This document shows, piece after piece, positions 1 through 45,595 of a DNA stretch of 45,595 nt. Every line of letters starts with the position of its first letter. Within the stretch, counting starts at the first letter, position 1. The stretch is from Adineta ricciae. Taxonomy: Eukaryota. Location: positions 144,292 through 189,886 of the forward strand of contig CAJNOJ010000205.1 of NCBI GenBank assembly GCA_905250025.1, read 5' to 3'. The translations under genes and the position numbers were made by a program. The notes under the pieces are model-generated. The model was given only the letters and a program-made list of their open reading frames with translations, searched no databases and was not told the DNA's origin.

Positions 1-2417
1 GTACCATTGATATTGCATGGAAATATCGCTTCAGTACCATTTGGAATGTATATTTTATTGTTTGCTAAATAGGGTACAAATAAATCAGCCGTATCACAGT
101 TTCCGATAACATAAGGCACTGGAATTTTATAAAGTACGCAAGTACTGTTCATCCAAACTTCATTCCATCCACTAAAACCTCGTCGAGGTGCATAAAACCC
201 CAAACATGTATTACTTCCGAAATCACCTCGATTCATATCTGCGTAGACGTAGATTTGATGATGATCTTTCTTTGAGTGACCTAGAAAATTCTTTTTACCA
301 CCATAAACATGAAAATTATAACTGTCTTCGTAGAAACAACTGCCATCATCATGATCGATAGGCCACAGAGCATTATAATTGTTGAAAATCGTGTTATGGT
401 GAATATAACTATAGTGCTGCCAGAGCGAAGGCACGCCGGGTTGGGTCGCATCACTCAAAAACGGTTGCCGATCCCATGTGTTGATAGGTCCATGATCACT
501 CGTTTCCCGAACTGTGTTAAACATTACATTCCAACTGAGTGTATGATTTCCGTAATAACCGTCATTGATATTGATTGCTGCGCGTGGTACATTAAACATT
601 AGGTTACCAATGACAGATGCACTGCGACTAACAGCGATTAGTACCGGTGAAGATTGTTTATTGTAAATACCGGTTTCATGCATTAAATTCGACTGTATCA
701 GTGTATTTGCTGGTTGACTTCGCACGCTAAAGCCATCGATTCCATTCGTACTACCGACAAGAATGATCGCTGAGTCTGCTAACCATACGAATTCATTCAT
801 AACAATCGAAGTTGCATCGTTATAATCAATTAGCGCGATACCATTGCTGCCTAGTTGTGTAAATAAATTTCGTGTTATACTAACATCTTTCGTATTCATT
901 AGATATAGAGTACCGCCTCGATGAACAGCCCAATCGCCACCACCTGGTACCATGTATTCCCGCATGTATGTACTCGTCGTTTCTGATAGTATTAAACCTT
1001 CGAATCGTACATTATAGATTGGATCATCAATACTAATACCGCGCAAAGAAATAAGACAAGGCACTTGACTGGCAACGAAAGTGTTTGGCATCGTTTCATT
1101 GGGCATAAAGTAGAGCGTACGGCTATCTTTATCTAGGAACCATTCGTTGGGTGAATCAAGTTCTTCGAAAATATTAGCGACATAAAATGCGCCACCCCAA
1201 CTTAAACCTCGTGCTTCTTGAAATCCACCTCGACCAAACATAATCGTGTATTCTGTACTATTAACCGACCCTATCTGAAATATCCAGCTGCCCCAATATT
1301 CGCCTTGAAATGTGTGCACCAAACCAGCGGTGGATTTAGTCCAATTGCTCATATGCGGTAATGTATCTTTATTCACAGTAATGCCGCGAGTAGTAACGTA
1401 ATTATCACCACCGGGTGGTGCCGCTGTGCTCCAAAAGTTCGTAGGCGGATCGAAAACGTATGCACCACCGCCCACGCCAAGTTGAAAATTCGTAAACACC
1501 GTACCATTTCGAAACGGCACTTGTACATGTACTTCTAGACTTCTATTCGGAGTAGGCCCCCACCACTTTTGCCACTCAAAACAAAATCCAGGATTTTTAG
1601 CATATAACCCTTGAGTCGATGGATCACCATTTGGATACTTGGCAAGAATCGCACGTTTACCATCAATATATAACTCATTAAATTGCTCTAAGTCAATATA
1701 CGATGGTATTTTCGCTTTCATGATGGTACCATTAGTTGTTGTTTTTGCATGGACAGACCATTGTAACGGTAATAACGTACCACCACTTAATATGACACGT
1801 TCATCTAGGTAATTCTGTATCACAAGATTACTATCAGCACTTGTTAATTGAATCACACCCATTTGACTACTGGATGTAGTTGCATTTGCACCGAGATAGT
1901 ACGTCCCTTCACGTATAACAATGCACATCGTATTGTTTCTACCGTATGTGATACGAAACGTCCGCGTTAATAATACAGCTGTCTGAATAGTTTTCAAAGG
2001 CATTTCAAATGTTCCATTCCATCGATCGTCACCCGTTTTCCCGTTGACAAACACTGTGCGATAACAGTTATCTGCTTTCGTTTTTTCTTTATTTGCGAAT
2101 AGCGAACGACTATTGGATGATCGGTAAGTACGATAGATTGTTTCATTACATTCATCCATTTGAAATGCACTTTCACTAAGTGTTGTCCAGTTACCTTTCC
2201 AAAACGGAGGCGCGATGTACCCAGCCATCTCGATAGTGAAAGCGCGTAGTGCACAGTCGTCCTTGAGAGCAACATTTGGATTTCTGACTCGACCATATCG
2301 CGGATCAATTTTAGCTGAATACTTCGTTGTACGATGTTCAAGTGAACAGCTCACCATACTGTCTGAGCTATAAATCACAATGAGCAATATAAGTGACATA
2401 CCAGTGAATAATAGCAT
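1..2417 (-). CDS. Secreted right-handed parallel beta-helix (pectin-lyase-fold) protein. The 5' end is complete (ATG at 2417, alternative ATG at 2399) and the 3' end runs past window position 1. There are no introns.
   Basis: My own minus-strand translation is open from 2417 to position 1 (more than 800 aa) with no stop, and the upstream in-frame stop is TAG. This ORF is absent from the supplied track, presumably because it has no in-window stop. The N-terminus (MLLFTGMSLILLIVIYSSDSMVSCS) looks like a signal peptide. The body carries repeated beta-helix rungs with N-rich turns, for example ITRNLFTQLGSNGIALIDYND, VIGNLMFNVPRAAININDG and IHHNTIFNNYNALWPIDHDDGS. A continuous 2.4-kb exon is unusual here, because most other genes in the window have ~50-bp introns. 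Confidence 0.6.
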   Translation of the reverse strand, partial: MLLFTGMSLILLIVIYSSDSMVSCSLEHRTTKYSAKIDPRYGRVRNPNVALKDDCALRAFTIEMAGYIAPPFWKGNWTTLSESAFQMDECNETIYRTYRSSNSRSLFANKEKTKADNCYRTVFVNGKTGDDRWNGTFEMPLKTIQTAVLLTRTFRITYGRNNTMCIVIREGTYYLGANATTSSSQMGVIQLTSADSNLVIQNYLDERVILSGGTLLPLQWSVHAKTTTNGTIMKAKIPSYIDLEQFNELYIDGKRAILAKYPNGDPSTQGLYAKNPGFCFEWQKWWGPTPNRSLEVHVQVPFRNGTVFTNFQLGVGGGAYVFDPPTNFWSTAAPPGGDNYVTTRGITVNKDTLPHMSNWTKSTAGLVHTFQGEYWGSWIFQIGSVNSTEYTIMFGRGGFQEARGLSWGGAFYVANIFEELDSPNEWFLDKDSRTLYFMPNETMPNTFVASQVPCLISLRGISIDDPIYNVRFEGLILSETTSTYMREYMVPGGGDWAVHRGGTLYLMNTKDVSITRNLFTQLGSNGIALIDYNDATSIVMNEFVWLADSAIILVGSTNGIDGFSVRSQPANTLIQSNLMHETGIYNKQSSPVLIAVSRSASVIGNLMFNVPRAAININDGYYGNHTLSWNVMFNTVRETSDHGPINTWDRQPFLSDATQPGVPSLWQHYSYIHHNTIFNNYNALWPIDHDDGSCFYEDSYNFHVYGGKKNFLGHSKKDHHQIYVYADMNRGDFGSNTCLGFYAPRRGFSGWNEVWMNSTCVLYKIPVPYVIGNCDTADLFVPYLANNKIYIPNGTEAIFPCNING

Positions 2418-3123
2418 TCCTGCAGAATTTCTTTTGTGCTATAGAAAAAGACAACAGAACTGTATACGTATATTCTGTTTGATATTTCAATACAGAAGAC
2501 CTTGTGTCAAGTTACATAAGATAACACAGTGATAAGAATGTTTAAAAATAGTTGGATTGGGTTGTATTTACCTTAACTTCTGTTTGATCGGTGGAACAAT
2601 ACTGTTGCAATAGAATTGGATTTTCTTGTGAATTATAAGCATACATTGATTTGTCTTGGATCATCTGATCGTCAGCACTGAATATAAAAATAAAATAATA
2701 TTTTATACGATCGCATGGTTTTTTTTACATGTACCATTGAAAATTCAATCAATGGTATAAAAATGAAGCCAATTATATGACAGTCACTGTAGAAGTCGCT
2801 CTTTGTTTATTCTCTCAAGAGCACAACGTGAATAGCAACATCATATACTTTCACAAATTGCTACAAATAATCATTCAGACGCCGTTTGAAACGGTAAAAG
2901 CTGTTGCCGGCTAGAATCCTTTCAAAATATAACAACGAAGAAGAAAAGAAAAGCAAAGAATGTTGAATGAAAATTCGATGATTGACAGGCAATACATGTT
3001 TTCGTTGTCGTCATCATGTTCTTCAGCTTGATTCGTGCCATTCTCGTGAAAGTGTTGAAATTTCCCTCTTCAACAGTATGAATGATGTCACTGGGCGAAA
3101 ATGAGTTCGAAGTTCTTAAAAGT

Positions 3124-3131
3124 TATATAAG
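3124..3131 (+). promoter_or_regulatory. TATA-like box (TATATAAG) about 75 bp upstream of the ATG at 3203
   Basis: The match is by sequence only. Confidence 0.2.
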
Positions 3132-3202: not shown

Positions 3203-3625
3203 ATGGAATTACATTTATCACAAGTTTTATCCAACTGGAATGAAGTTGAAGTTCGTACTGTTCCAAATGTCATGTATCAAGTGGTTTGTCCAACGAACAA
3301 TACTGACGAAGGTATTGAATATCGCTTTCATTGGTTTCTTGATTGTTCTGAGACATATATTCATAACCACCGGTATGCTTTTGACACGTACTGCTTACAA
3401 GGTGAATATGAAGAGCGCTTGTGGGAAATAAGTGACGATCGTTCCGGGACTTTCACGTATACGTTTCCGAGAACTTCGGGAAACAAATTCGGTACATGCA
3501 TTCCATACCAGGAGTGCTACGGACTGTTAAACAGAACCACCATTTTCCAGGCAATACATTACATCTCGAACCCAATCAGTATCATTCGATCGTTCCGATT
3601 GGCGGAGCAAATAGCAAGATATTAA
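3203..3625 (+). CDS. Hypothetical Cys/Trp-rich protein. The ORF track gives 140 aa, and the 3' part may continue by splicing into the 3496-3777 frame.
   Basis: The ORF starts at an ATG with a TATA-like element upstream and has protein-like composition (MELHLSQVLSNWNEVEVRTVPNVMYQVVCPTNNTDEGIEYRFHWFLDCSETYIHNHRYAFDTYCLQGEYEERLWEISDDRSGTFTYTFPRTSGNKFGTCIPYQECYGLLNRTTIFQAIHYISNPISIIRSFRLAEQIARY). An overlapping ORF at 3496-3777 ends in a plausible C-terminus (...SSSDSIQAPTDEIRPATAEERQLIHEKLISLS). I could not place a splice junction confidently. Confidence 0.25.
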   Translation: MELHLSQVLSNWNEVEVRTVPNVMYQVVCPTNNTDEGIEYRFHWFLDCSETYIHNHRYAFDTYCLQGEYEERLWEISDDRSGTFTYTFPRTSGNKFGTCIPYQECYGLLNRTTIFQAIHYISNPISIIRSFRLAEQIARY

Positions 3626-4670
3626 CATTCGTTGCTAGACGACTTTGCTCAACAGCTGCAGAAACGACATTCGTACTAAGCTCATCAGATAGCATTCAAG
3701 CACCGACCGACGAGATTCGACCAGCAACGGCAGAAGAGCGGCAACTGATTCATGAGAAGCTTATAAGTTTGTCATAGACAGCACTTACATTTTCTAAGAT
3801 TGTAAACTATTTTTTTAAAAATTCATGTCCTAGAAAGAAATAAAATTGTCAACACATTTCACATTTTTATTAGATGTTTTTCTCTGAACATACAACATAC
3901 ACTGTTATCTTCAGTACTCCGCCCACGGGCGAAAGATTAACCGTCACTTACAAATACGAAGTAAGTTTTTCGAGCGAAATGCATAATTTAGACAAAGACG
4001 AACAAATCGCCGTCGTATAGTTGACTGATTTATGTAACAAAATACTTCTGATGAGTTGCGTTCAGAACTATTTCGATGATATCCACCACGATCTTCAATC
4101 ATTCCACAGATGAGAAACATTGAATATCATACTAAGCTCATCAGTTCGAAGCTGTTGGCGACCTAATTATAGAACTGATTTGGATGAGAATTAGAGTTGT
4201 TTATTTAAACGTCATTCGTCTCCACACCCTCACCCCCATCGACTCTACATATGTCGCTTTTTCTTTACGTAGTGTATGCATGGATGAAATTAATTGAATT
4301 CTACTTACAAGACTATCGCAAGTAAACGAATAGAGACACACTGATTGATTCTTTAATGTATTTATTTTTTTCAGCACAAAAAGAACACTTGCTCGTGCAT
4401 TTCGCTTATACGTAAAAACAAGAGAAATGTAGAAAAGAAATATTCTTTTGTATACACAAGTGACTGTCTTGTTTCGGTTTGTTTTCTCTTCCACCCTTTA
4501 TTCATATAACTAAAAGCGTAAATTTTTCCCATGTAAAATAAATTCATACTTTTGCTATTTAAAATGATTAAACCTCCAGAATCGAATTTGGAACAACCGA
4601 AGATTGTACATCGCTCACAGCAAAGTATCAAATCAAAGTTTGTCCTTCTTATTCTCATGCTATGAATTAG

Positions 4671-5326
4671 TTTTGCTCTTTTGGTTTTTGTCAAAGGTCT
4701 CAATGCTCAGTTTCGCGACTGATTTGTACTCAATTATTAATTCTATTGGCACTGCTTGTTGTAGCAGCGATTACCATTCCAATTATAGTTCTTATACTTG
4801 GTAAATTTAAAAGAAAAATGTCGAGTTATTCCATTTCAAAGTGTTTTTCTTTTAGATAATCGTTCAGCACGTAAATATTTCATTAAAATATTTTTCTTTC
4901 GAACATGAATTCTTTTTCTAAGCATGTTCATCAACTTATTCTGATACTTTTACCAATGGTGTGACACCAACAGCAGCTCAATGTGCAAATTGGCAACAAT
5001 TTAAAACAAGTTTAACTTGTTCATCTTATTCGAAAATGCGTTTTTATGGTTCAAAAGACCTTGTTGGTGTTACTGTATCTGATCCATCTGTTGTCACTGC
5101 ACTGGTAGTTGCTTTAAAGTATAACACAACAGTGACTACACTATCAAATGGGGTTTACTGGAGAGTTGGCGTATGTTCAAGTGGTTTTGAGATATCTGCA
5201 AATGGATTTTGTGCATGTGCAGCAAATTATGCATTGAGACCATGTCACAGTAATTCAGATTGGGGAGGAATTGGCAGTCCAACATGTAGTTCGGCAACAC
5301 AAACATTATCACTTTATTTTGAATAA
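4671..5326 (+). CDS. Putative small secreted cysteine-rich protein in a partial 3-exon model: about 4671-4800, 4856-4870 and 4923-5326. The start codon is unresolved.
   Basis: Two 52-55 bp GT-AG introns (gtaaat...ttttag and gtaaat...tctaag) join a hydrophobic leader frame (LICTQLLILLALLVVAAITIPIIVLIL) to the long ORF 4961-5326 (TPTAAQCANWQQFKTSLTCSSYSK...CACAANYALRPCHSNSDWGGIGSPTCSS). Codon phase across both junctions agrees with the ORF-track frame. Exon 1 has no ATG in that frame, so an upstream exon or a different 5' end is likely. Confidence 0.25.
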
Positions 5327-5847: not shown

Positions 5848-6927
5848 TTATTGTTGTTCAGAAGCAATCGAGTTCGAACAAACGATTCTGTCAAAATGAT
5901 GATTATCAGGAGAGCGATGAGTCGATGGTTTGGATGAGGTGAAAACAGTAAAACTGGATGTCCAATCGTCACGAAATTGACACGTGACAAACCAGCGTTT
6001 TTCTTCCAGCCAAAATGGATTTCGAAAAGCAGTGATCATTCTATCAAAATGATTCCAATCGCAGCAATAGCAGAAGATGCAGAATTCCAAATGAGCAAGT
6101 CGTGGTAATTTCAGCCGGAGAAAGTATTCCCACTGAGATAGACGATGTATAAATTCGAATGGCTTGCCCGAACTCGTAAGATCCAGATGAGTTAACGAGG
6201 ACAACAGAGAAAGACAGTATTCCAGTTTATCCATTGTGATTTTGAGGTCGTTTAGTGTAAGAGAATGTAATTGCGTGTAGGATTTCGTGAGGAATGACTC
6301 GTTGATTTCGACTTTCCAACAATTGTTCATGATGAGAGCATGTAAATTAGGCGAATGGTCTAGAATGGAGCAAAATTGCTCGAACGTGCACGTTCCAATC
6401 GAAATACTTGTAGCTCGACACGAAAACGGCCATAGAAATCGTTCGACGTTGTTCAGATTAAAGTTCAAAATGCATTGGCGAAGACTGGATTGTAAGAGAA
6501 TCATGGATACTAAATTCAATAAATCATCTACATTCTCTAAGGGATTTACATCGAGAGAGAATGTAATTAAGTTACAATTCTTTATCACATGCCGTAAAAT
6601 CAATTTGACTTCATTGATATCCACACGATGAAGAACTAATGTTTCAAGCCGTTGGAATCGATGAATGTCGATAATTACACTGTTGTTATCATCGATTTCT
6701 AATAGTAAAACATTTTCCAATGGAATAATCCGGCAGATATTTTTCATCGCAATTGAGTTAACGTGAATCTTATATCGATTATAACTTTCTGTAACAGCAA
6801 ATAGTTGCGTACAAACATGTCGAATCGATCGAACGATCGTTTTTGTATCCAGAAAATCGCAAATCCGATATAGAAGCTCCGTTGGTAAGTCGAGAAGACC
6901 AACTTTATTTTCTTTTAGAGTTGTCAT
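5848..6927 (-). CDS. F-box plus leucine-rich-repeat protein, single exon
   Basis: The ORF starts at a true ATG and has an N-terminal F-box (LLDLPTELLYRICDFLDTKTIVRSIRHVCTQLF) followed by a Leu-rich repetitive body. Confidence 0.7.
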   Translation of the reverse strand: MTTLKENKVGLLDLPTELLYRICDFLDTKTIVRSIRHVCTQLFAVTESYNRYKIHVNSIAMKNICRIIPLENVLLLEIDDNNSVIIDIHRFQRLETLVLHRVDINEVKLILRHVIKNCNLITFSLDVNPLENVDDLLNLVSMILLQSSLRQCILNFNLNNVERFLWPFSCRATSISIGTCTFEQFCSILDHSPNLHALIMNNCWKVEINESFLTKSYTQLHSLTLNDLKITMDKLEYCLSLLSSLTHLDLTSSGKPFEFIHRLSQWEYFLRLKLPRLAHLEFCIFCYCCDWNHFDRMITAFRNPFWLEEKRWFVTCQFRDDWTSSFTVFTSSKPSTHRSPDNHHFDRIVCSNSIASEQQ

Positions 6928-7088: not shown

Positions 7089-8078
7089 CTATCTCCAATA
7101 TGTTTTGGCAACGCTACGAGTCGTCTCCCATGCTTCATCCAAGACTTGAACGACTTCATCGGGCAATGGTTCTTTCTGTAAATCTTTTAAATTCGATTCT
7201 AATTGCTGTATACTACTTGCTCCGATGACAATTCCATCGCCATCGAATACATTTAATTTCGAATGATGCAAAAGCCACCGAAATGCTGTTTCTATAAGCG
7301 TAAGATCATACTTTACCAAGATGGGTGTTATATGATCAAGAGCGCTGAGATAAGCATCATGAAAATATCGATCGCGATACATTTTCGCGGCAGTATTACC
7401 TTTGACATCAGCAAACCGACCTTCTTCGGGAACTGTCAATGTTGACTTATATCGTCCGGAAAGAATACCACCAGCTAATGGATTATAAGCAAGTATATTG
7501 ATTCTAAAGTGTCGACAACAAGGTACAAGTTCTTCTTCCAGAGCACGTGTTAACACATTGTACATAGCTTGATAAATTGTTGGTCGAACCCATTGATTAC
7601 AAATGCAAATCTGTGCAATTTTTGCCACTTCCCAAGCGGCATAATTACTCAATCCAAAGATTTTGAATTTACCTTCTTGATGGAACTTATTCACTTCTTC
7701 AAGAGTCTCTTCGAATGGCACACTTCGATCAGGTGCATGAAGATAGAATATTTCCACCGACTCTTGTCCTAATTCTCGCAGACTTGTTTCGAATAACTCC
7801 CGTAATTTCGCTGGTTTATGCATACCCGCTTCTATTGGATATACTTTTGTTGCAATGGTAAATCCACCTTCACCAAGCACACCTGTTTCTCGTGTAAAAG
7901 CTTCTTGTTTACCATCGTTATATAATCGTGCAGTGTCGAGCTCTGTGTAACCGTACGATTGAAACGTCTTGAACATCGCTCGTATCTCTTCTACAGTCGT
8001 AACTCTCGCAAGATTCGTACCAACTGGACCCAATGTTGCACATCCCAAAACGATGCGTGCACGCTTTTTGTCCGTCAT
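7089..8078 (-). CDS. Aldo-keto reductase of the AKR7 (aflatoxin-aldehyde-reductase-like) type, single exon
   Basis: The region from IVLGCATLGPVG through TELDTARLYNDGKQE and ATKV matches the AKR7 pattern LGTM.GR...E.DTA..Y.nG.SE..LG, and the length is typical for an AKR. The ORF track begins at a TTG at 8102, and the first ATG (MTDKKRARIV...) is at 8078. Confidence 0.8.
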   Translation of the reverse strand: MTDKKRARIVLGCATLGPVGTNLARVTTVEEIRAMFKTFQSYGYTELDTARLYNDGKQEAFTRETGVLGEGGFTIATKVYPIEAGMHKPAKLRELFETSLRELGQESVEIFYLHAPDRSVPFEETLEEVNKFHQEGKFKIFGLSNYAAWEVAKIAQICICNQWVRPTIYQAMYNVLTRALEEELVPCCRHFRINILAYNPLAGGILSGRYKSTLTVPEEGRFADVKGNTAAKMYRDRYFHDAYLSALDHITPILVKYDLTLIETAFRWLLHHSKLNVFDGDGIVIGASSIQQLESNLKDLQKEPLPDEVVQVLDEAWETTRSVAKTYWR

Positions 8079-8568: not shown

Positions 8569-9334
8569 CTAAATCTTATTCCGACGAGGATACTGACGTT
8601 GGAATTTTGTCGAAAATTTTTCATGTACGTTTTCGATAGTTCGATATAACGGTGCGATCATCGTTAAATCTTCATTATCATTTTCCTTGAGCTCATGATT
8701 CAAAATAACTTCCAATGACGTTTTGACCGATGCCAAAATCATTTTAAAATCTAACAGAAGATTATATGTATCCCCAGCATTTAACCAGTTTTCCATCATC
8801 AATAACTTTTCGGAGCCATGCTGATAGAAGTCAAATGCGTAACTATTTAGATGGTAAGCTGTATTTGTGTGATCACAGCAATCTATATCAATGAATGGCA
8901 CCACTTTTGACGATAAATCAATATCATAAATTAGATCCCATGAGCCAATAATTGGATTATACCTCGACATGTATTTCTCATGAGTAAGACCTGAGAGAGC
9001 AGCGAATGGAGAAATGGACGTAGGATTTTGCATCTGTTGGGAATAATGGTGATGAAGTCGATACTCAAATGTTCCATTATCATAATCCACAGTTTGAGCA
9101 AACGAAATACTCGAAAATGGTAAAACTTCCTCTTGTTTATGAGAACTAGTCGAACGACGAAGATGTTGTATGATCATTTGTATATAATATCCATAAACTT
9201 CCTTAACAATCGAGTTGTAACTATCAACACGTTTTCGAAATTCTTTAGAAATCGGTGCTAGAAATAATTTTGAATTCAACTTTTCTACTTTTCGGTGTTG
9301 CACTAGATCTTCATATGCGCGATGAGTGATCAAC
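8569..9334 (-). CDS. DExH-box helicase exon 8, the C-terminal region ending at the stop at 8569
   Basis: The exon runs from W|LITHRAYEDLVQHRKVEKLNSK to ...FQRQYPRRNKI*. The frame agrees with ORF 8569-9387. The eight exons sum to 5646 nt, which is divisible by 3. Confidence 0.75.
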
Positions 9335-9384
9335 CTACATAAAAACAAACCAATCAACATTTTCCACGCGACAGTTTTATTTAC

Positions 9385-9958: not shown

Positions 9959-10010
9959 CTACATACAGATGATACAGTTTTTTTCCACAAGATTATCTAA
10001 AAGTACGTAC

Positions 10011-10801: not shown

Positions 10802-10861
10802 CTACATAAAAAGACAAAGTCAAGCTATTCTGTACTATATCAAATGAATGCATATATTTAC

Positions 10862-11399: not shown

Positions 11400-11445
11400 C
11401 TAAAATAGATCATTAACGAAGAAATAAAAAGAGTGTCAATCTCAC

Positions 11446-12416: not shown

Positions 12417-12465
12417 CTAGAATATCATATTTCGGAAGGAATGACGAGAATAAGGAGTCTCATAC

Positions 12466-35775: not shown

Positions 35776-36045
35776 TGACACCTTGCTGAAATGAAATAAG
35801 TTTTAAAGTATAATATATCAATATATCAAGAGAATAAAAACAAATATTGGTTATTTCACAACCACTTATAAAAAAAGAGGACGATAGTACATAGATGTCA
35901 TAGGACAACTGATGTATGAGTACTTTAAGAAAGTGTAGCATCATTTATCTGGCTTCAAAATTACTCAGTGAAGTGCTTTGAGAGTAGAAGTCTTCCAAGG
36001 AACATTACTCACTTGCTCTAGACGAACATTGCAGTTCCACGTCTC

Positions 36046-36498: not shown

Positions 36499-38832
36499 TC
36501 AATAACACCCCCACCCACCCTCACCCTCACCCTCAATAAGCGCTTTGAAATGTTTCAATTCGGTCAAACGCATCACGGCTGTCTTATATTCCGGATGGTT
36601 AACATCGAATACTTCCTTGTATATCTTAACCGCCATTTCGTAGTAATGTATAGCCATTGAAATATCGCCGTTTAGCGCTAGAATGGTACCCATAGTAGAA
36701 AATGTTCGAGCAAATGTTGGATGATTTGATGGATAAACACGACGTTTGATTTCCAGAGAAAAATTACAATAGTGCAATGCTTGTTCAGTATTACCTTGAT
36801 CTGCATAATACGATGCAAGATTGCTATAGAACATCCCTAGTTCTGATTCGTCAGGAGTTTGAGCGTTTTGTATACAATTGATGGCTTTTCTTGTATATTC
36901 TATGCCTTGTTCGATATTGCCCATACTATGATACACTACACCGATATTATTGTACCTTTTAGCAATACTTATGCTCATCCCTTTTTCAAATTGTTCCTCG
37001 GTTTGTAAGCTTTTTTGTAGATAATACAACGCTAATTCGTATTCTTCTTTTTTACGATAGATAACACCAATATTGCCATAAACACCAGCCAGTGCAACAT
37101 GACTGTATATGCCATTAATGGTGTATATTCGTTCTGCTTCTTTATATTGGCGAAGTGCTTCATCATATTCGCCTTTGGCGTCATATACCCCTCCAATTTC
37201 CTGATAAGCGCAGGCAATCGGTAGTTTGTTATCGGCAAATAATCCCTGAAGAATTTCAAGATTTCTTTTGCAATATTGTAATGATTTATTGTATTGTCCT
37301 AACTTCAAATAAGCTGCACCTATGCTAGAGTATAGTCTCGCTGCCATCATATCGTTATTCAAATGGCGATGTTCCACGATTTCATGCGCATGAAAATAAT
37401 TTTTAAAGGCATCATCATAATTTCCAAACCTTTCATAAGTGTCTCCAATGCGTGTTAGAGTACGCACAAATACATTCGGACCTACTGTTGGGTATTTCAA
37501 GTGAATTTCTAATGCCGTTTTGTAAAAGCTCATTGCTCGTTCATAATCTTCTTCTTGTGCATAAATTTGTCCAATGTTGTTATAAATATGGCAACAAACT
37601 GGATGCATGGAAGAACCTTCCATTATATAACAATTTAAAGCCTTTATATAGTAGTATAGACCGCGTCGATAGTTATGCTTAACACAGTTGCAAATACCAA
37701 GAACATTGTAGATTTTCCCAGGATTCTCAGTGTACTCTTCGAGTAACATAAGCAGATATTTTTCTGCTTTGCCATACGAATACGATTCATTTAGAAGTAT
37801 AGCCAATTCAAACAGTGGATCATCACAGTCCTCCAAACGGGAGTATGAATTCTTGAGGTAATCATTCAATTTCACCCTGCTCTCATCAGTTGCTGTAAGC
37901 TGTATTTTCCAAACATTGTTTTCCATTTGTTTAACAGACTGTACTACGAATAGCATGCCCATAGAGAGTAAGACTTCATTTTCGTCCGACATATGGCTTA
38001 CGTTTGAGATATCAGCTAGTGGTTTGTGCGATCGATTCACATCGATTGTGATTTCAAAAAGTACTGACTCGATTTCTGGTCGATTGGACCCATCGCCAGC
38101 AAATATGAGTGCAACATCTTGACGCTTTGTTGTAGACAAGAAAGATTTTAGCGAGATGATGGTATTTTTACTAGCTTTTAGATTATTCAACTCGCTGGCT
38201 TCCATTTGTTGACCGCGGTAAACTGTAATAACATTCGAGTTTTCCGTTTTGAATTTATTATGTAAATCACTGAGTGCATCATAAAGATCGATTACAAAAC
38301 TTCGAAACTTGAATATGATATCAATATCTTCAGTTTGAAGCGCTTTGTTTATTACTTTATGAATGAAACAATCTTGAGTGTACCACGAAATAGCCGATTG
38401 AGGTTGATATGTCTTTTCAAACCGTTCAATTTTTCTTAATTCACTGGGATCATCATGATATTGGACCCTGCATATTGTTACCATATCTTGTCTTGATCTA
38501 TCGTTTTGAGGTAGACGCCGTAGAGCTTCCAATAACATTTGATTCCACTGATAAGTTGCACAATGTGAACTCAGATCGTGGCTAGACGTAGTTTTCATTG
38601 AGAACAGCATCGGTTCCACTACAGGCATCTGCAACAACTCTATATCGCTTTTCACACGATCACATAGTTGTTTATTTAATTCATAGACTCTGTCTCGAAT
38701 CTTTGGAAAATGATGTGTCCAATTCAATTGTTCCGAATCCATATTTGAGATTTCTTTCTCAAAGCAAATATAAATGTATATCAGCTGCGGAATCTCATGA
38801 ATGAGTGGCACCAACAATTCAGCTTCACTCAA
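36499..38832 (-). CDS. Arginine-specific ADP-ribosyltransferase domain (R-S-ExE) fused to tetratricopeptide (kinesin-light-chain-type TPR) repeats
   Basis: The ART core has R in VITVYRGQQM, S-T-T in LKSFLSTTKRQDVAL and ExE in SDENEVLLSMG. More than 10 TPR units follow, for example AMSFYKTALEIHLKYPTVGPNVFVRTLTRIGDTYERFGNYDDAF. The C-terminal tail is EGEGEGGWGCY*. The ORF track begins at a TTG, and the first ATG within this ORF (MDSEQLNW...) is at about 38742. The true 5' end may lie in the next feature. Confidence 0.75.
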   Translation of the reverse strand: MSEAELLVPLIHEIPQLIYIYICFEKEISNMDSEQLNWTHHFPKIRDRVYELNKQLCDRVKSDIELLQMPVVEPMLFSMKTTSSHDLSSHCATYQWNQMLLEALRRLPQNDRSRQDMVTICRVQYHDDPSELRKIERFEKTYQPQSAISWYTQDCFIHKVINKALQTEDIDIIFKFRSFVIDLYDALSDLHNKFKTENSNVITVYRGQQMEASELNNLKASKNTIISLKSFLSTTKRQDVALIFAGDGSNRPEIESVLFEITIDVNRSHKPLADISNVSHMSDENEVLLSMGMLFVVQSVKQMENNVWKIQLTATDESRVKLNDYLKNSYSRLEDCDDPLFELAILLNESYSYGKAEKYLLMLLEEYTENPGKIYNVLGICNCVKHNYRRGLYYYIKALNCYIMEGSSMHPVCCHIYNNIGQIYAQEEDYERAMSFYKTALEIHLKYPTVGPNVFVRTLTRIGDTYERFGNYDDAFKNYFHAHEIVEHRHLNNDMMAARLYSSIGAAYLKLGQYNKSLQYCKRNLEILQGLFADNKLPIACAYQEIGGVYDAKGEYDEALRQYKEAERIYTINGIYSHVALAGVYGNIGVIYRKKEEYELALYYLQKSLQTEEQFEKGMSISIAKRYNNIGVVYHSMGNIEQGIEYTRKAINCIQNAQTPDESELGMFYSNLASYYADQGNTEQALHYCNFSLEIKRRVYPSNHPTFARTFSTMGTILALNGDISMAIHYYEMAVKIYKEVFDVNHPEYKTAVMRLTELKHFKALIEGEGEGGWGCY

Positions 38833-38840
38833 GAATACAA

Positions 38841-39158
38841 TTAAAAAACTTTTTCATACTTAAACGAAGAAATAAAATCAACGCATTCATCAACATCGCG
38901 AAACTTTTCGTAGTACGAATAGTCACCATCAAACGTGAATAGCACATTGAGTTGCGTTTCAATACTTACTATATGATTGACATTAAGAAAGACAATTACA
39001 AAGTCATCAGAATTAGATGGTGTTGCCATAATTTCAAAGGCAATCTGTTCATTACATAGCTGCACAGTACGAACACGCGGATTAGCAGCAAAAGGGCCAT
39101 ATACATCAATCATATCAATAGTCGCAGGACGTTCATTTCGTTGCAGAAATTCAGACAT
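38841..39158 (-). CDS. Possible 5' exon or N-terminal extension of the ART-TPR gene, 105 aa, starting at an ATG
   Basis: The ORF (MSEFLQRNERPATIDMIDVYGPFAANPRVRTVQLCNEQIAFEIMATPSNSDDF...KYEKVF*) is protein-like and ends 9 nt before the TTG-initiated ART-TPR ORF. Removing a 32-nt GTATGA...CTTGAG segment joins the two in frame (...SFN|EAELLVPLIHEIPQL...). That would be an unusually short intron. Confidence 0.35.
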   Translation of the reverse strand: MSEFLQRNERPATIDMIDVYGPFAANPRVRTVQLCNEQIAFEIMATPSNSDDFVIVFLNVNHIVSIETQLNVLFTFDGDYSYYEKFRDVDECVDFISSFKYEKVF

Positions 39159-40287: not shown

Positions 40288-40881
40288 ATGGCTGAATCGC
40301 ATGTGTTTAAGACAACTACAGTGGATGAACATAGTGACGCTGAAGACGCTTCATTTTCAACTGGATCTTCAAGACCTAGTCGTGCAAATATTGCCAAGGA
40401 TACTCTTGAAAAACTCAAAGCTGGCTGGTATGAATCACCTGATGGCACCAAAATCGTCCTTGAAGATGATGTCACATTCTCTAATCAACAGAGTATTTTA
40501 TATACCGAAGACGATCTCCAAAATACAAAACAACTGAATGCAAACTTAGACGAAACAAATCCTACACGTCTAACTTCCGATAGTTCTCAAACCAAAATAG
40601 AAACTCGACTTTGCTCAACATTAGAAGCAGCCAGGTCACTCGTTGCTGAGGTAGGCGAAGATCACGTCGGAGTGTTGAATTTCGCTTCAGCTAAAAATCC
40701 TGGTGGTGGCTTCCTCGGTGGCGCACAAGCACAAGAAGAATCTATTGCTCGCTCTTCGTCACTTTACATGGCTATTACACAAGATCAATTCATGGATGGA
40801 TTCTATAGTTATCATCGACATGGTGAACGAGGTGTCTACAGCCACCGAATGATCTATTCTCCACGAATAACTATTTTTCGA
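40288..40881 (+). CDS. Microbial-type PARG-like macrodomain protein (TIGR02452/DUF2263 type), exon 1
   Basis: The ATG at 40288 starts an exon containing the diagnostic ...VGVLNFASAKNPGGGFLGGAQAQEESIARSSSLY motif (PGGGF...QEE), which is the ADP-ribose-binding and catalytic signature of bacterial-type poly(ADP-ribose) glycohydrolases. The donor is CGA|GTATGT. Confidence 0.7.
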
Positions 40882-40946
40882 GTATGTTAACAAGATCAGA
40901 ACTTTCTTTGGTTTATATCATATCGTTTTTTTTATTGTCTTTACAG

Positions 40947-41411
40947 AACGACAATGGATATCTATTACCGTTACCGTATCATGTAGGCATTATTACTTGT
41001 CCTGCCCCTAATGCAGGAGTAATTAATGATCGAATAGACAGTCGAAATCTAATGAGCGAACGTATTAAGCGTGTACTATACGTTTTTAAAGCGCATAAAC
41101 ACGACACACTTCTATTAGGGGCCTTCGGCTGTGGTGTATTCAAGAATAATCCATATGACGTTGCTCTAGTCTTTCGAGAACAATTAGAATCGAACTTATA
41201 CAAAAACTCATTCAAACGCATTGTTTTCGCAATTACAAACCCTGCAATGTATCAAATATTCAAACAAGTCTTCGATTCTCCCAATCTACACGAGCTACAA
41301 CAACAAATGGCATTAATGACTTTCAATCAGAACAAGAAAAAACATTCGTCAGATAAAAATCGAAAACAGCAGAGAAAAGAACGACGTCAACAAAAGTATC
41401 AGAACGATTAA
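40947..41411 (+). CDS. Microbial-type PARG-like macrodomain protein, exon 2
   Basis: A 65-bp intron ends at TTTACAG. The exon reads NDNGYLLPLPYHVGIITCPAPNAG...LLLGAFGCGVFKNNPYDVALVF... and ends in a basic Lys/Arg/Gln-rich tail (KKKHSSDKNRKQQRKERRQQKYQND*). Phase 0 agrees with both ORF-track frames. Confidence 0.7.
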   Translation, partial: NDNGYLLPLPYHVGIITCPAPNAGVINDRIDSRNLMSERIKRVLYVFKAHKHDTLLLGAFGCGVFKNNPYDVALVFREQLESNLYKNSFKRIVFAITNPAMYQIFKQVFDSPNLHELQQQMALMTFNQNKKKHSSDKNRKQQRKERRQQKYQND

Positions 41412-41498: not shown

Positions 41499-42377
41499 CT
41501 ATATTTTCACTCTAATGAAATTATTGAGAACATCCTTAACTTTCTTATTCATGAACACTGAAATAGTTATCATTATGGTCGCAGATAAGACTAAAAAGTT
41601 GAGCGAAATAAAATATAATTCATCCGGAGGACGTTGACTGTTGTTCAAATTCCAAAAACAAAGGATTAAATAAGGAGTCGCACCGCACGCCAGTATACTC
41701 AGAAGTATTAGAAGTTGTTGCAAGATCTTCAAATTTCGTTTGGCATTTCGATATGAAGGAGTTCTATCAATATTTGGCGACACTTTCGCTACTACCAAAC
41801 GAATCTGATAGAGAATAATACCATAGATATATATTACGCCGATAGTTGGCAACATAGATGACGTGGTGAGAGTATAGAGTGGCATAGCCTTTGTTTTCAT
41901 TGTAATCATACACATTCGATCGCCCTCGACTAAACCGAAACCATTTTCATAGAAAAATGGGACAATGGCGATGAGAAACGATACCACATATTTAACAGTT
42001 ATCAATATCCAATGTGTTCGCCATGTAAGCCAAGTTCGATTGTTATAAAAACGCGTAAAAAACAATCGACTGATCGATTGAATAAAGAACGAATACGAAG
42101 CAGACGTTATTGTTACGTCCAAAAGATAAGCTCGTAGGGTACACAGCGGTTGATTTTCTGACCAATTTTGACGTGTGCCATAATAACACCCAGTAAAATG
42201 TAACGAATAGAAGCACAGCGCAGTAAAGCACAACTCACACAGAAGTAAATTTGTTACTGTATGAGATTTTCGATGAAAACTTATGATAACGATCAATAAA
42301 AGACTGAATATGAAGCCAATGCACGCAACCACAATCATAAATATGAAGTTCACTGCAAAAAACAGCTCTGTCAGCAT
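41499..42377 (-). CDS. 7TM receptor (GPCR-like), single exon, 292 aa
   Basis: The ORF starts at a true ATG and has seven hydrophobic helices (FIFMIVVACIGFIFSLLLIVIISF and others). It is convergent with the PARG-like gene, and their stops are 88 bp apart. Confidence 0.6.
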   Translation of the reverse strand: MLTELFFAVNFIFMIVVACIGFIFSLLLIVIISFHRKSHTVTNLLLCELCFTALCFYSLHFTGCYYGTRQNWSENQPLCTLRAYLLDVTITSASYSFFIQSISRLFFTRFYNNRTWLTWRTHWILITVKYVVSFLIAIVPFFYENGFGLVEGDRMCMITMKTKAMPLYTLTTSSMLPTIGVIYIYGIILYQIRLVVAKVSPNIDRTPSYRNAKRNLKILQQLLILLSILACGATPYLILCFWNLNNSQRPPDELYFISLNFLVLSATIMITISVFMNKKVKDVLNNFIRVKI

Positions 42378-44525: not shown

Positions 44526-45498
44526 TTAACTAATTGCATCTATGATCGTTTTCAAAAAATTATTAGCACCATACTCTTCATCGGGTGTTTTTGTCAAGCC
44601 TAATCGAACAACAACTAACTTCTTCGATGGAATAATAAATACTGCTTGACCATCAAAACCACTGGCAAAAAACATATCTGTTGGTACATCGGGTAAGCGC
44701 CGTGTGGATGGATCATTCTCCTTTCCTGTGTTTAGCCAAAATTGATAACCGTATTCACCGTGAAGATTAGAACCTCCTAATGTTGCTGATTGTTTAACCC
44801 ATTCTTCTGATAAAATCTGTTCATTGTTATAAAAGCCTTTATTCATATATAACAAACCAAATCGTGCCAACAAATGTACCCGATGCATCAACTTCCATCG
44901 TCATATTGTTCATGCCAAGTTTATGAAACAGAGCCCGATAGGGAAATGAATGATAGTCCTGTTCGCCAACAGTATGTCGAATAATGCGCGATAGTATATT
45001 TGTATTTCCGCTAGTATAGTAACAATACGTTCCTGGTTTATGTTTTAGTGCATGTGAAGCAGCAAATGCAGCCATATCGCCGGTGTTGAATAACATTTGA
45101 GTAACATCACTATTTGAATAATAATCTTCGACAAAATCTAAGCCACTATTTTGTTGCAGCAAATGTTTGATTGTGATTGAATGTCGAGGATCATCAGTAT
45201 TATTCCATTCCGGTACTGGTGCAGGTGTATCAATATTCAGTTTGTTGTCTTTGACGAGGATGCCGACTAATGCACTGATAATACTCTTTGTCATACTCCA
45301 ACCTAAAAATTTCGTTGATCGGGAATAACCGGTGCCATATCGTTCGGCAATTAATGCGCCATCGTACACAACGATGACTGCTCGTGTACGTATCAATTTA
45401 GTGGGATCTTTCTCAATGAATAGCATGTCTACAGCTTCTTGTACTAATGCTCGATTGACGTTAACTGGGTAAACCTCGTCGCTGATTTTATTACCCAT
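44526..45498 (-). CDS. Beta-lactamase / penicillin-binding-protein-family serine hydrolase (S-x-x-K), complete at the 5' end (ATG at 45498). It carries a 1-nt frameshift near 44870-44895 and may be a pseudogene.
   Basis: The active-site motif is GWSMTKSIISALVGIL. Later segments are conserved in order: YCYYTSGNTNILSRIIRHTVGEQDYHSFPYRALFHKLGMNNMTMEVDASG in one frame, then (H)LLARFGLLYMNKGFYNNEQILSEEWVKQS...YQFWLN...DMFFASGFDGQAVFIIPSKKLVVVRLG in the +1 frame. The upstream in-frame stop shows that the ATG at 45498 is the start. Confidence 0.6.
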
Positions 45499-45595
45499 TG
45501 GCCAGGGAAGGTCATCTTGATTGACGTTTGGTGGCGTGGGAACTTTAAATGGTTGAGTACGGATTTGTTATATATGAATAAAGGCTTTTATAACA

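What the first reader, a model, noticed from the sequence alone, without database searches (positions are those of the whole stretch)
1..45595. High density of foreign-looking genes interleaved with expanded animal gene families, consistent with an accessory region of a bdelloid-rotifer-like genome
Within 45 kb there are at least six genes whose closest-looking families are bacterial or fungal: the beta-helix protein, DUF4177, GH128, a TIGR02452-type PARG, a beta-lactamase-family hydrolase and a possible LURP-one-like protein. Several carry eukaryotic additions such as signal-peptide exons and micro-introns. They are intermingled with lineage-expanded families: F-box/LRR, NHL/TRIM, ART-TPR and orphan GPCRs. 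The window also has introns of about 50 bp, high gene density on both strands and AT-rich sequence. This is the signature described for bdelloid rotifer accessory regions. The organism assignment is my inference from these features.
Basis: inference. Interest (0 to 1): 0.6.

Follow-up and report, generated by a model that had tools for sequence, protein, structure and literature searches.

The report
Rotifer gene block with old foreign genes
This window is an ordinary, gene-dense stretch of the bdelloid rotifer Adineta ricciae in which a few anciently acquired bacterial or fungal-type genes sit among normal and expanded animal genes, a pattern already well documented for these animals.

Summary
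The organism guess is right. Window 1-17136 is 99.99% identical to an Adineta ricciae contig, and its proteins are deposited as A. ricciae.

All six foreign-looking genes exist at the stated places, but support varies:
- **Strong:** the TIGR02452/microbial-type PARG and the beta-lactamase-family hydrolase. Outside bdelloids, their nearest named relatives are only bacteria: Paenibacillaceae at 41-47% identity and Chitinophagaceae at 54-57%.
- **Family level:** GH128, and the beta-helix protein, which is GH141-like.
- **Weak:** DUF4177, which scores below Pfam's cut-off.

Short introns (46-65 nt), signal-peptide exons, F-box/LRR, ART-TPR, NHL and GPCR genes are confirmed. The block has a collinear homologous copy (about 90-94% identity, dS 0.08-0.18).

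The "accessory region" reading is not supported. There are no telomeric repeats and no transposon domains. The orthologous A. vaga block is collinear and lies 6 Mb from a chromosome end. Foreign-gene density (4-7 of about 23 genes) is only marginally above the published genome-wide 9-12.5%.

This window's beta-lactamase copy is truncated and frameshifted next to an inverted repeat at the window edge. That is either a recent lesion or an assembly artefact. Overall the finding is already known and of low interest.

The parts
1..2646 (-). Membrane-anchored right-handed beta-helix protein, GH141-like (879 aa in the deposited annotation). The last ~127 nt lie beyond the window start. Intron at 2439-2571 (133 nt) between a short N-terminal exon and the exon carrying the TM anchor.
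   Evidence: Gene call on the A. ricciae contig and exon model. PDB BT_1002 at E 4.4e-9. Sub-threshold Pfam hits to GH141_M and DUF1565. Foldseek top hit 5MQP at E 2.5e-13, from a low-confidence model with pLDDT 52. All named homologues are bdelloid.
3203..3777 (+). 171-aa orphan protein (CAF1112356.1), with a 59-nt intron at 3492-3550.
   Evidence: No Pfam or NCBIfam hit.
4564..5326 (+). 198-aa protein with a cysteine-rich C-terminal part and 2-3 short introns. No family assigned.
5848..6927 (-). F-box protein.
   Evidence: Pfam F-box-like at 5.7e-5; gene call.
7089..8078 (-). Aldo-keto reductase, an ordinary animal AKR7-type gene. It serves as a native linkage control.
   Evidence: Pfam 2.7e-47. 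PDB mammalian AKR7A at 247 bits versus 106 bits for the next family in the list. Exact match to CAF1112402.1 [Adineta ricciae].
8569..14577 (-). DDX60-like helicase, 1881 aa, with seven introns of 46-60 nt.
   Evidence: Pfam DEAD and PIN-like_DDX60; gene call; intron solution.
14893..19943 (-). Large receptor gene with LDL-receptor class A and EGF modules plus a rhodopsin-type 7TM domain. The upstream exon boundaries are my estimate.
   Evidence: Pfam 7tm_1, EGF_Teneurin and Ldl_recept_a. Partial gene call cut by the contig end.
20390..21142 (-). NHL-repeat gene with a Cys/His-rich segment and a coiled-coil segment upstream. A further NHL-like fragment lies at 21495-21659.
   Evidence: Pfam NHL at 1.6e-4, 22 bits against a cut-off of 20; ORF inspection.
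22116..22494 (-). Small secreted protein (108 aa): a signal-peptide exon, a 52-nt intron (22385-22436), then a DUF4177-like domain.
   Evidence: Pfam DUF4177 at E 0.002, 18.6 bits, below the cut-off of 25. Model. No PDB or plasmid match.
23049..24095 (+). Orphan rhodopsin-type GPCR.
   Evidence: Pfam 7tm_1 at 1.4e-5, below the cut-off.
24743..26233 (-). F-box protein with a leucine-rich C-terminal part.
   Evidence: Pfam F-box at 5.9e-9.
26482..27900 (+). F-box plus RNI-type LRR gene, multi-exon. Boundaries are approximate.
   Evidence: Pfam F-box-like at 7e-4 on the first exon; LRR-like ORFs.
28207..28815 (+). Secreted 202-aa protein with a LURP-one/Tubby-type fold: a 12-stranded barrel around a C-terminal helix.
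28971..29648 (+).
   Evidence: Pfam Cupin_2 at E 0.005. Bacterial plasmid cupins at 23-29% identity, E down to 8e-8. 82% identical to the A. vaga neighbour.
29715..30842 (-). GH128 (Glyco_hydro_cc) beta-1,3-glucanase-type enzyme. It is preceded by a signal peptide and a PAN/apple-like cysteine-rich exon, with a 51-nt intron at 30448-30498.
   Evidence: Pfam 2.2e-67. PDB 6UAY at 1e-31, with NEP and TEF motifs aligned. PAN_4 at 1e-4, sub-threshold. Model. PAN exon and catalytic exon are both conserved in A. vaga.
31168..33072 (-). TRAF-type zinc finger, coiled coil and LRR protein.
   Evidence: Pfam LRR_6, zf-TRAF and Sina_ZnF.
33467..35781 (-). F-box plus LRR_6 gene, multi-exon.
36499..39158 (-). 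ADP-ribosyltransferase (R-S-ExE type by eye) fused to TPR repeats.
   Evidence: Pfam ART at 1.4e-7 and TPR_12 at 8.6e-51. The homologous copy is called as 885 aa.
40288..41411 (+). Microbial-type poly(ADP-ribose) glycohydrolase (TIGR02452), 352 aa, with a 65-nt intron at 40882-40946 inside the catalytic domain.
   Evidence: Pfam 7.9e-44. TIGR02452 at 233 bits. PDB 3SIG and 5ZDA at about 1e-45, with GGG...QEE aligned. Nearest non-bdelloid named relatives are Paenibacillus and Brevibacillus. dN/dS 0.17 between the two copies.
41499..42377 (-). Orphan rhodopsin-type GPCR.
   Evidence: Pfam 7tm_1 at 4e-18.
44526..45569 (-). Beta-lactamase-family serine hydrolase, damaged in this copy. Codons 1-101 are missing and a 35-nt frameshifting deletion lies at 44868/44869.
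   Evidence: Pfam. Full-length bacterial relatives at 54-57% identity. Alignment to the intact 460-aa homologous copy.
45564..45595 (.). Right arm of a perfect 32-nt inverted repeat. The left arm is 44825-44856, inside the same gene. The right arm runs off the window end.

Best explanation
The window is a gene-dense, chromosome-internal-type segment of the Adineta ricciae nuclear genome. It is one of two homologous copies.

**Foreign-type genes.** A handful of genes trace to non-animal families. Two are well supported: a bacterial-type PARG and a Bacteroidota-like serine hydrolase. Two are supported at family level: a GH128 glucanase and a GH141-like beta-helix protein. These acquisitions are old:
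- Orthologues occur across bdelloids, including Didymodactylos.
- The block is collinear with A. vaga.
- PARG also has a 48-50% identical second paralogue in both Adineta species.

**Domestication.** After acquisition the genes gained spliceosomal introns, signal-peptide or membrane-anchor exons, and in GH128 a PAN-like module. At least PARG and the hydrolase evolve under purifying selection.

**Neighbours.** They sit among native animal genes (AKR7, a DDX60-like helicase) and families that have expanded in rotifers (F-box/LRR, ART-TPR, NHL, GPCR).

**Shown:** organism, gene content, introns, the collinear copy, A. vaga synteny, and the bacterial affinity of two genes.

**Inferred:** horizontal origin as the cause, the direction of transfer, and the biochemical roles. 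Likely roles are secreted or surface carbohydrate-active enzymes acting on microbial or fungal glycans, and removal of poly-ADP-ribose.
For: **Organism**
- 99.994% identity over 17,136 nt to GCA_905250095.1 contig CAJNOR010001277.1.
- Exact proteins are named [Adineta ricciae].

**Homologous pair**
- L004 (the collinear copy of window 1-17136, contig CAJNOR010001013.1) is 93.7-94% identical in its two long aligned blocks, 80-89% in short intergenic pieces, and has the same gene order.
- L005 (the collinear copy of the window's right end, contig CAJNOR010000810.1) is 90-93% identical to window 35952-45569 in its three main aligned blocks, with one short 82% intergenic block.
- dS is 0.08-0.18 with dN/dS 0.11-0.35. 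The published homolog Ks is 0.14 and the ohnolog Ks is 1.27 (PMC5916493).

**PARG**
- TIGR02452 at 233 bits.
- In PDB only the bacterial enzymes match at E <= 0.01.
- Best 120 database hits: bdelloids at 45-100% identity, then Paenibacillus, Brevibacillus, Bacillus and Aureispira at 41-47%, plus two protist transcripts. No other animal appears.

**Beta-lactamase family**
- Bdelloids at 55-92% identity (most at 62% or more; three A. steineri entries at 55-56%), then Chitinophagaceae and other Bacteroidia at 54-57% over the full length.
- PDB matches at E <= 0.001 carry only names of bacterial-type enzymes (NylB, R61 DD-peptidase, Lsa45, Flp). The organism assignment is from my memory, since the tool lists no organisms.

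**GH128:** Pfam 2e-67 with the catalytic NEP/TEF motifs aligned.

**Beta-helix:** BT_1002/GH141 is the best match by both sequence and structure.

**Introns:**

**A. vaga synteny**
- Order is LOR-like, cupin-like, PAN-GH128, TRAF-LRR, PARG, GPCR, beta-lactamase, at 14.08-14.10 Mb of the 20.35-Mb record CP075492.1.

**Linkage to native genes:** AKR7 scores 247 bits to mammalian AKR7A.

**No accessory-region marks:** no telomeric repeat, tandem repeat, tRNA, Rfam family or transposon domain.
Against: - No taxonomy-labelled alien index or phylogeny could be computed.
- For the beta-helix, LURP-one-like, DUF4177-like and cupin-like genes, no non-animal relative closer than a distant family or fold match was found. 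Descent from an old eukaryotic gene is not excluded for these.
- The chromosomal position in A. ricciae itself is unknown. The internal position is inferred from A. vaga.
- The right end of the window carries a rearrangement or misassembly, so the window's own assembly is not flawless.
Confidence: 0.85

Rival explanations
1. One reading: the window is part of a dynamic accessory or subtelomeric compartment where foreign DNA accumulates and gene order turns over quickly.
For: - HGT candidates are reported to be enriched in bdelloid subtelomeres (PMC8494291; PMC11258130).
- Between A. vaga and A. ricciae some intervening genes differ. A. ricciae has F-box-LRR and ART-TPR where A. vaga has NAGPA and a GT28/UDPGT-like gene.
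- One end of the window shows a structural lesion.
Against: - No (TGTGGG)n repeat, no tandem repeats, no transposon domains.
- The homologous copy is fully collinear over the 27 kb available.
- The A. vaga orthologous block has the same order and lies more than 6 Mb from either chromosome end.
- Foreign-gene density is only marginally above the genome mean.
Confidence: 0.1
2. Some or all of the foreign-looking genes are not transfers. They are old eukaryotic or animal genes that survive in rotifers and were lost or diverged beyond recognition elsewhere.
For: - The beta-helix, LURP-one-like and DUF4177-like proteins have only bdelloid named relatives.
- One LOR-like relative lies on a eukaryotic metagenome contig carrying a Ty3-type element.
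- A motif scan of 185,579 bacterial and archaeal genomes found no beta-helix relative.
- The Tubby fold is native to animals.
Against: - For PARG and the serine hydrolase, 41-57% identity over most or all of the length to bacterial proteins, with no other animal in the best 120 hits, is hard to explain by vertical descent.
- From my own knowledge of CAZy and Pfam, not tested here, GH128 and GH141 are essentially bacterial and fungal families.
Confidence: 0.25
3. The foreign genes are contamination or chimeric assembly of microbial DNA with rotifer DNA.
For: The right end of the window has an inverted-repeat junction that could be an assembly error.
Against: - The genes carry GT-AG introns of rotifer size.
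- They are flanked on both sides by animal genes on the same contig.
- They recur in the second homologous copy at dS of about 0.1-0.18.
- They are in the same order in the chromosome-level A. vaga assembly.
Confidence: 0.01

Closest known systems
[quoted passage not shown]
   Same: - Non-animal-type enzymes with acquired introns, linked to animal genes, present in homologous pairs and shared across bdelloid genera.
- These papers report that most HGTc are ancient and shared, which fits what is seen here.
   Different: - Nothing essential differs.
- This block is not in the subtelomeric setting where enrichment is usually emphasised.
- It may correspond to one of the internal "ancient HGTc hotspots" mentioned for A. 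vaga chromosomes 1 and 4. I could not test that.
Bacterial-type PARG (TIGR02452 / PF10021; Thermomonospora curvata 3SIG, Deinococcus radiodurans 5ZDA)
   Same: - Full-length match at 233 bits.
- About 45% identity in the core, with the GGG-X-QEE catalytic loop aligned.
   Different: - Encoded in an animal genome.
- Interrupted by a 65-nt spliceosomal intron.
- Carries N- and C-terminal low-complexity extensions, including a lysine/arginine-rich tail.
GH128 beta-1,3-glucanases (PDB 6UAY, 6UAQ series)
   Same: Catalytic core match at 2e-67, with both catalytic glutamate motifs aligned.
   Different: - Preceded by a signal peptide and a PAN/apple-like cysteine-rich module on a separate exon.
- That arrangement is conserved in A. 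vaga.
Class C beta-lactamase-related serine hydrolases of Chitinophagaceae (e.g. Panacibacter, Filimonas)
   Same: - 54-57% identity over the full length, including the N-terminal hydrophobic segment.
- SxxK motif present.
- The intact rotifer copy is intronless.
   Different: The copy in this window lacks its first 101 codons and has a 35-nt frameshifting deletion.
GH141 (Bacteroides thetaiotaomicron BT_1002, PDB 5MQP)
   Same: Best sequence and structure match; right-handed beta-helix with the GH141 insertion domain.
   Different: - Only 13-16% identity, and the Pfam scores are below cut-off.
- The rotifer protein has an N-terminal membrane anchor and long extra regions.
- No close bacterial relative was found.
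LURP-one-related (LOR, PF04525) / Tubby C-terminal superfamily
   Different: - The window protein itself has no Pfam LOR hit.
- It carries a signal peptide.
- The family is small, and among the 20 relatives whose names I looked up every organism name is bdelloid.

Membership tests
Bdelloid rotifer genome (Adineta ricciae) | Near-identity to a deposited A. ricciae assembly, and exact protein matches named for that species | tested here: met
   99.994% identity over 17,136 nt. CAF1112402.1 and CAF1112356.1 are named [Adineta ricciae].
Degenerate-tetraploid homologous pair | A second, collinear copy with low synonymous divergence | tested here: met
   L004 and L005 are collinear at mostly 90-94% identity. 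dS is 0.08-0.18, against a published homolog Ks of 0.14. The ohnologous pair was not examined.
Subtelomeric / accessory region of bdelloids | Telomeric (TGTGGG)n repeats nearby | tested here: not met
   0 matches to two repeat units with 1 mismatch allowed. No tandem repeats.
Subtelomeric / accessory region of bdelloids | Enrichment of transposable elements | tested here: not met
   No RT, integrase or transposase Pfam domain in genes or in 66 intergenic ORFs.
Subtelomeric / accessory region of bdelloids | Position near a chromosome end | tested here: not met
   The orthologous collinear block in A. vaga lies at 14.08-14.10 Mb of 20.35 Mb. The position in A. ricciae itself is not testable with these tools.
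HGT candidate (hU >= 30 and >= 90% non-metazoan hits, as in Nowell 2018) | Best non-animal match clearly better than the best non-rotifer animal match | tested here: inconclusive
   - PARG and the beta-lactamase-family gene: all named non-bdelloid hits in the best 120 are non-animal, down to 195 and 380 bits. Many hits are unnamed and no exact index was computed.
- The other four candidates: no usable outgroup hits.
Bacterial-type PARG (TIGR02452 / PF10021) | Full-length model match above the curated cut-off | tested here: met
   233.1 bits against a cut-off of 50, model positions 1-264 of 266. Pfam 150 bits against 23.5.
Bacterial-type PARG (TIGR02452 / PF10021) | Catalytic GGG-X6-8-QEE loop | tested here: met
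   NPGGGFLGGAQAQEE aligns with HPGGGFLSGAHAQEE of 3SIG. That this loop is catalytic is from my own knowledge of the family.
Bacterial-type PARG (TIGR02452 / PF10021) | Poly(ADP-ribose) hydrolysis | not testable with these tools
   Needs an enzyme assay.
GH128 (Glyco_hydro_cc, PF11790) | Model match above the cut-off, with both catalytic glutamates | tested here: met
   227.6 bits against a cut-off of 21. FNEPE and VWVTEF align to 6UAY. The role of these residues is from general knowledge of clan GH-A.
Beta-lactamase / serine hydrolase family (PF00144) | Model match above the cut-off, with the SxxK motif | tested here: met
   91.4 bits against a cut-off of 27. The SMTK motif is present in the sequence.
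Beta-lactamase / serine hydrolase family (PF00144) | Intact open reading frame in this window | tested here: not met
   The first 304 nt are missing and there is a 35-nt deletion relative to the intact 460-aa homologous copy.
GH141 | Significant match to the family models or structures over the catalytic beta-helix | tested here: inconclusive
   BT_1002 at E 4.4e-9 over about 80 residues. Pfam GH141_M at 22.9-23.1 bits against a cut-off of 27. Foldseek E 2.5e-13, but from a model with pLDDT 52. Catalytic residues were not checked.
DUF4177 (PF13783) | Model match above the gathering score | tested here: not met
   18.6 bits against a cut-off of 25, E 0.002, covering profile positions 1-44 of 65.
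LURP-one-related (PF04525) | Sequence match to the family model | tested here: not met
   No hit for the window protein even at E <= 1. Four of 40 relatives hit weakly, best 1.9e-4.
LURP-one-related (PF04525) | 12-stranded barrel enclosing a C-terminal helix | tested here: met

The most novel reading that the evidence does not exclude
The block may be a stable, chromosome-internal island that holds foreign genes from several different donors side by side. These are a Paenibacillaceae-like PARG, a Chitinophagaceae-like serine hydrolase, a GH128 and a GH141-like protein, and possibly a cupin, a LOR-like and a DUF4177-like protein.

The island has kept its order since before A. vaga and A. ricciae split. 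It could be the A. ricciae counterpart of one of the internal "ancient HGTc hotspots" noted on A. vaga chromosomes 1 and 4. That would be a relic of a former subtelomere left by a chromosome fusion.
Probability: 0.3. Interest if true: 0.35.

Novelty: already known. Interest (0 to 1): 0.15.

Why it matters
It matters little beyond confirmation. Bdelloid rotifers are the textbook case of massive horizontal gene acquisition in animals, and this region and its proteins are already deposited and automatically named.

The check is useful in three ways:
- It shows that a tool-less reader can correctly call the lineage and most gene families from raw sequence.
- It gives a clean worked example of domestication: a bacterial-type PARG split by a 65-nt intron, and GH128 given a signal peptide and a PAN-like exon.
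- It warns that foreign-gene clusters in bdelloids are not necessarily subtelomeric or fast-evolving. This one is collinear between two Adineta species and between the two homologous copies.

Tried and rejected
- **Accession search.** Literature searches for the assembly and contig accessions found nothing.
- **Exact look-ups for the right half.** The right half had to be reached through the homologous copy.
- **Beta-helix outgroups.** The best 120 hits were all at least 60% identical, and the named ones were all rotifers, so no outgroup was visible. The AF2 model was poor, pLDDT 52. A motif scan of GTDB genomes found no relative.
- **GH128.** The same genome scan gave only one distant Flavobacteriales match at 34% identity, which does not identify a donor.
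- **AlphaFold-database fold search.** This would have given organisms for structural neighbours, but it was not available.
- **DUF4177-like domain.** No PDB or plasmid match, and re-scanning the spliced protein did not raise the Pfam score.
- **PDB sequence searches.** Those for the LOR-like and cupin-like proteins gave only noise.
- **ART-TPR and PARG as a functional pair.** I considered the divergent pair as a writer/eraser unit and rejected it. The adjacency is absent in A. vaga. From general knowledge, an arginine-specific mono-ART product is not a PARG substrate.
- **Linkage beyond Adineta.** The Rotaria sordida PARG has unrelated neighbours. The Didymodactylos contig is a perfect palindrome and uninformative.

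Full report
**1. Where the window comes from**

A single-exon aldo-keto reductase in the window (7089-8078, minus strand) is encoded exactly on NCBI contig CAJNOR010001277.1 of assembly GCA_905250095.1. That contig matches window 1-17136 at 99.994% identity, with one mismatch. The protein and its 171-aa neighbour are deposited as "unnamed protein product [Adineta ricciae]". The window runs beyond that contig's end, so it comes from another A. ricciae assembly. Database records repeatedly point to a 189,886-bp contig that I could not fetch.

**2. Gene content**

I combined the deposited gene calls, six-frame ORFs and Pfam/NCBIfam scans. This gives about 23 genes covering 76% of the window on both strands.

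| Position (strand) | Gene |
|---|---|
| <1-2646 (-) | Membrane-anchored beta-helix protein |
| 3203-3777 (+), 4564-5326 (+) | Two orphan proteins |
| 5848-6927 (-) | F-box protein |
| 7089-8078 (-) | AKR7-type reductase |
| 8569-14577 (-) | 1881-aa DDX60-like helicase |
| 14893 to about 19943 (-) | LDLa/EGF/7TM receptor |
| 20390-21142 (-) | NHL-repeat gene |
| 22116-22494 (-) | Small secreted DUF4177-like protein |
| 23049-24095 (+) | GPCR |
| 24743-26233 (-), 26482 to about 27900 (+) | Two F-box/LRR genes |
| 28207-28815 (+) | Secreted 202-aa protein |
| 28971-29648 (+) | Secreted cupin-like protein |
| 29715-30842 (-) | GH128 |
| 31168-33072 (-) | TRAF-zinc-finger/LRR protein |
| 33467-35781 (-) | F-box/LRR gene |
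| 36499-39158 (-) | ART-TPR |
| 40288-41411 (+) | Microbial-type PARG |
| 41499-42377 (-) | GPCR |
| 44526-45569 (-) | Beta-lactamase-family gene |

The table lists 21 of these; the count of about 23 also includes two short orphan ORFs without a family, 24331-24720 (+) and 36049-36436 (-).

Further points:
- Annotated product lengths can only be reconciled with introns of 46-60 nt.
- My own models add introns of 51, 52, 65 and 133 nt.
- GC content is 36.9%.
- No tRNA, Rfam family, tandem repeat, telomeric repeat or transposon-type domain was found.

**3. The six foreign-looking genes, one by one**

*PARG.*
- It matches TIGR02452 over the full model at 233 bits.
- In PDB it matches only the bacterial enzymes of Thermomonospora curvata and Deinococcus radiodurans at about 1e-45, with the GGG...QEE loop aligned.
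- Among 5.8 billion proteins, the best 120 hits are bdelloids (45-100% identity, including Didymodactylos), then Paenibacillus, Brevibacillus, Bacillus and Aureispira at 41-47%, plus two protist transcripts. No other animal appears.
- A 65-nt GT-AG intron splits the catalytic domain. The homologous copy is independently annotated with the same 352-aa product.
- dN/dS between the copies is 0.17.

*Beta-lactamase family.*
- Bdelloid orthologues are 55-92% identical, most at 62% or more.
- The next named hits are Chitinophagaceae and other Bacteroidia serine hydrolases at 54-57% identity over the full length, including the N-terminal hydrophobic segment.
- The PDB matches are all bacterial-type enzymes by name. 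The organisms are from my memory.
- The intact homologous copy is a single 1383-nt exon.

These two genes are strong transfer candidates.

*GH128.*
- The catalytic core matches Pfam Glyco_hydro_cc at 2e-67 and the solved GH128 structures at up to 1e-31. Both glutamate motifs are aligned.
- It is preceded by a signal peptide and a PAN-like cysteine-rich exon, conserved in A. vaga.
- I could only find one distant bacterial relative at 34% identity.
- That GH128 is a bacterial and fungal family is my own knowledge, not a test run here.

*Beta-helix protein.*
- The best sequence and structure matches are to Bacteroides BT_1002 (GH141).
- Pfam scores are below threshold.
- All named relatives are bdelloids, and no bacterial or archaeal relative turned up in a motif scan.
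- The fold call is right, but the origin is open.

*LURP-one-like protein.*
- There is no sequence-level hit.
- A search of 1.84 billion representatives gave 96 relatives.
- An alignment of 40 of them gave a confident model, pLDDT 91, with 12 strands and a C-terminal helix.
- Four of the 40 relatives touch Pfam LOR weakly.
- Every named relative is a bdelloid, and one unnamed relative sits on a eukaryotic contig.
A foreign origin is not shown.

*DUF4177.* The score is 18.6 bits against a cut-off of 25, and nothing else supports it. It is suggestive only.

*A seventh candidate.* The secreted cupin-like protein at 28971-29648 has weak bacterial plasmid relatives.

*A native control.* The AKR is an ordinary animal AKR7: 247 bits to mammalian AKR7A, against 106 bits for the next family in the list.

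**4. Is the density unusual?**

Published genome-wide HGT-candidate fractions for A. ricciae are 12.5% on the initial screen and 9.1% after the clan test (PMC5916493).
- Six of 23 genes gives P = 0.06 and 0.015 against those rates.
- Four of 23 gives P = 0.32 and 0.15.

This is at most a mild local enrichment.

**5. Collinear pair**

- The AKR has a sister protein at 90% identity or more.
- Its contig, CAJNOR010001013.1, carries the same genes in the same order. It is 93.7-94% identical to window 1-17136 in its two long aligned blocks, with short intergenic pieces at 80-89%.
- Contig CAJNOR010000810.1 does the same for window 35952-45569, at 90-93% in its three main aligned blocks.
- dS values of 0.08-0.18 are in line with the published homolog Ks of 0.14, not the ohnolog value of 1.27.

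I did not examine the ohnologous pair.

**6. "Accessory region"?**

- The A. vaga orthologues have nearby gene numbers: I4U23_015360, 015363, 015369 and 015378.
- The A. vaga locus lies at 14,082,188-14,103,367 of the 20,354,754-bp chromosome CP075492.1.
- tblastn shows the same order there: LOR-like, cupin-like, PAN-GH128, TRAF-LRR, PARG, GPCR, beta-lactamase.
- Only the lineage-expanded genes between them differ. A. ricciae has F-box-LRR and ART-TPR; A. vaga has NAGPA and a GT28/UDPGT-like gene.
- In Rotaria sordida the PARG has unrelated neighbours.

So the block is old, stable within Adineta and, in A. vaga, far from the telomeres. Simion et al. note that many HGT candidates lie along the chromosomes. 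They also describe two internal ancient hotspots on homoeologous chromosomes 1 and 4. PARG and beta-helix paralogues lie on the 16.93-Mb chromosome. Whether this block is one of those hotspots could not be tested.

**7. The right edge of the window**

The beta-lactamase copy in the window differs structurally from the intact homologous copy.
- A 35-nt deletion removes SSYSWGTARDW and shifts the frame.
- The first 304 nt of the gene are replaced by a sequence whose visible 32 nt (45564-45595) are a perfect inverted copy of 44825-44856, a stretch inside the same gene only 12 nt from the deletion.
- The rest of the gene shows dN/dS of 0.11-0.19 against the intact copy.

The lesion is therefore either very recent or an assembly artefact. 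Published work found no palindromes in A. ricciae and attributed those of the first A. vaga assembly to scaffolding errors. A Didymodactylos contig carrying this gene is a perfect palindrome about its midpoint, which looks like the same kind of artefact.

**8. Verdict**

Two transfers are well supported and two are plausible at family level. The LURP-one-like protein is supported at fold level only, and DUF4177 only weakly. The "accessory region" interpretation is not supported. The phenomenon, the region and its proteins are already in the literature and databases, so novelty is nil and interest is low.

Noticed in passing
window 44825-44856 and 45564-45595; deletion at 44868/44869: A perfect 32-nt inverted repeat runs off the window end and replaces the first 304 nt of the beta-lactamase-family gene. 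A 35-nt frameshifting deletion lies 12 nt from the inner arm. The remaining coding sequence still shows dN/dS of 0.11-0.19 against the intact homologous copy, so this is either a very recent lesion or a misassembly.
   Followed up: partly
L010/L011 (Didymodactylos carnosus contig CAJNOK010000099.1, 40,408 bp): The contig is symmetric about its midpoint. It carries two identical head-to-head copies of the beta-lactamase-family gene about 4.9 kb apart. This is probably a palindromic assembly artefact.
   Followed up: no
window 36499-39158 (-) and 40288-41411 (+): An ADP-ribosyltransferase-TPR gene and the microbial-type PARG are divergent neighbours 1.1 kb apart in both A. ricciae copies. They are not adjacent in A. 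vaga, so this is probably coincidental rather than a writer/eraser pair.
   Followed up: partly
window 28971-29648 (+): A secreted 225-aa cupin-like protein has weak relatives among bacterial plasmid cupins (23-29% identity) and is 82% identical to its A. vaga neighbour.
   Followed up: partly
window 28207-30842: Three adjacent genes all start with signal peptides: the LOR-like protein, the cupin-like protein and PAN-GH128. Their order is conserved in A. vaga.
   Followed up: partly
window 24331-24720 (+): A 129-aa ORF with an N-terminal hydrophobic signal-like segment and no family match. It is possibly an unannotated small secreted protein.
   Followed up: no
window 43306-43587 (-): An ORF fragment resembles the TM3/ERH region of the neighbouring rotifer GPCRs. 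It lies in a 2-kb stretch without a gene, so it may be a decayed GPCR copy. Judged by eye only.
   Followed up: no
L005 6420-7844 versus window about 43692-44251: The homologous copy has about 1.4 kb between the beta-lactamase gene and the GPCR that has no counterpart in the window. This is an indel between the two copies, and its content was not examined.
   Followed up: no
L003 and L006 (ENA metagenome ERZ26165376, contigs of 1.29 Mb and 0.30 Mb): Long metagenome contigs carry relatives of the beta-helix protein (64% identity) and of the LOR-like protein (30% identity). One carries a Ty3-type retroelement, so an unidentified eukaryote in that sample shares these families.
   Followed up: no
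window 17136 (ends of contigs CAJNOR010001277.1 and CAJNOR010001013.1): Both homologous contigs of the deposited assembly end at the same position inside the LDLa/EGF/7TM receptor gene. That suggests a repeat or other assembly obstacle there.
   Followed up: no
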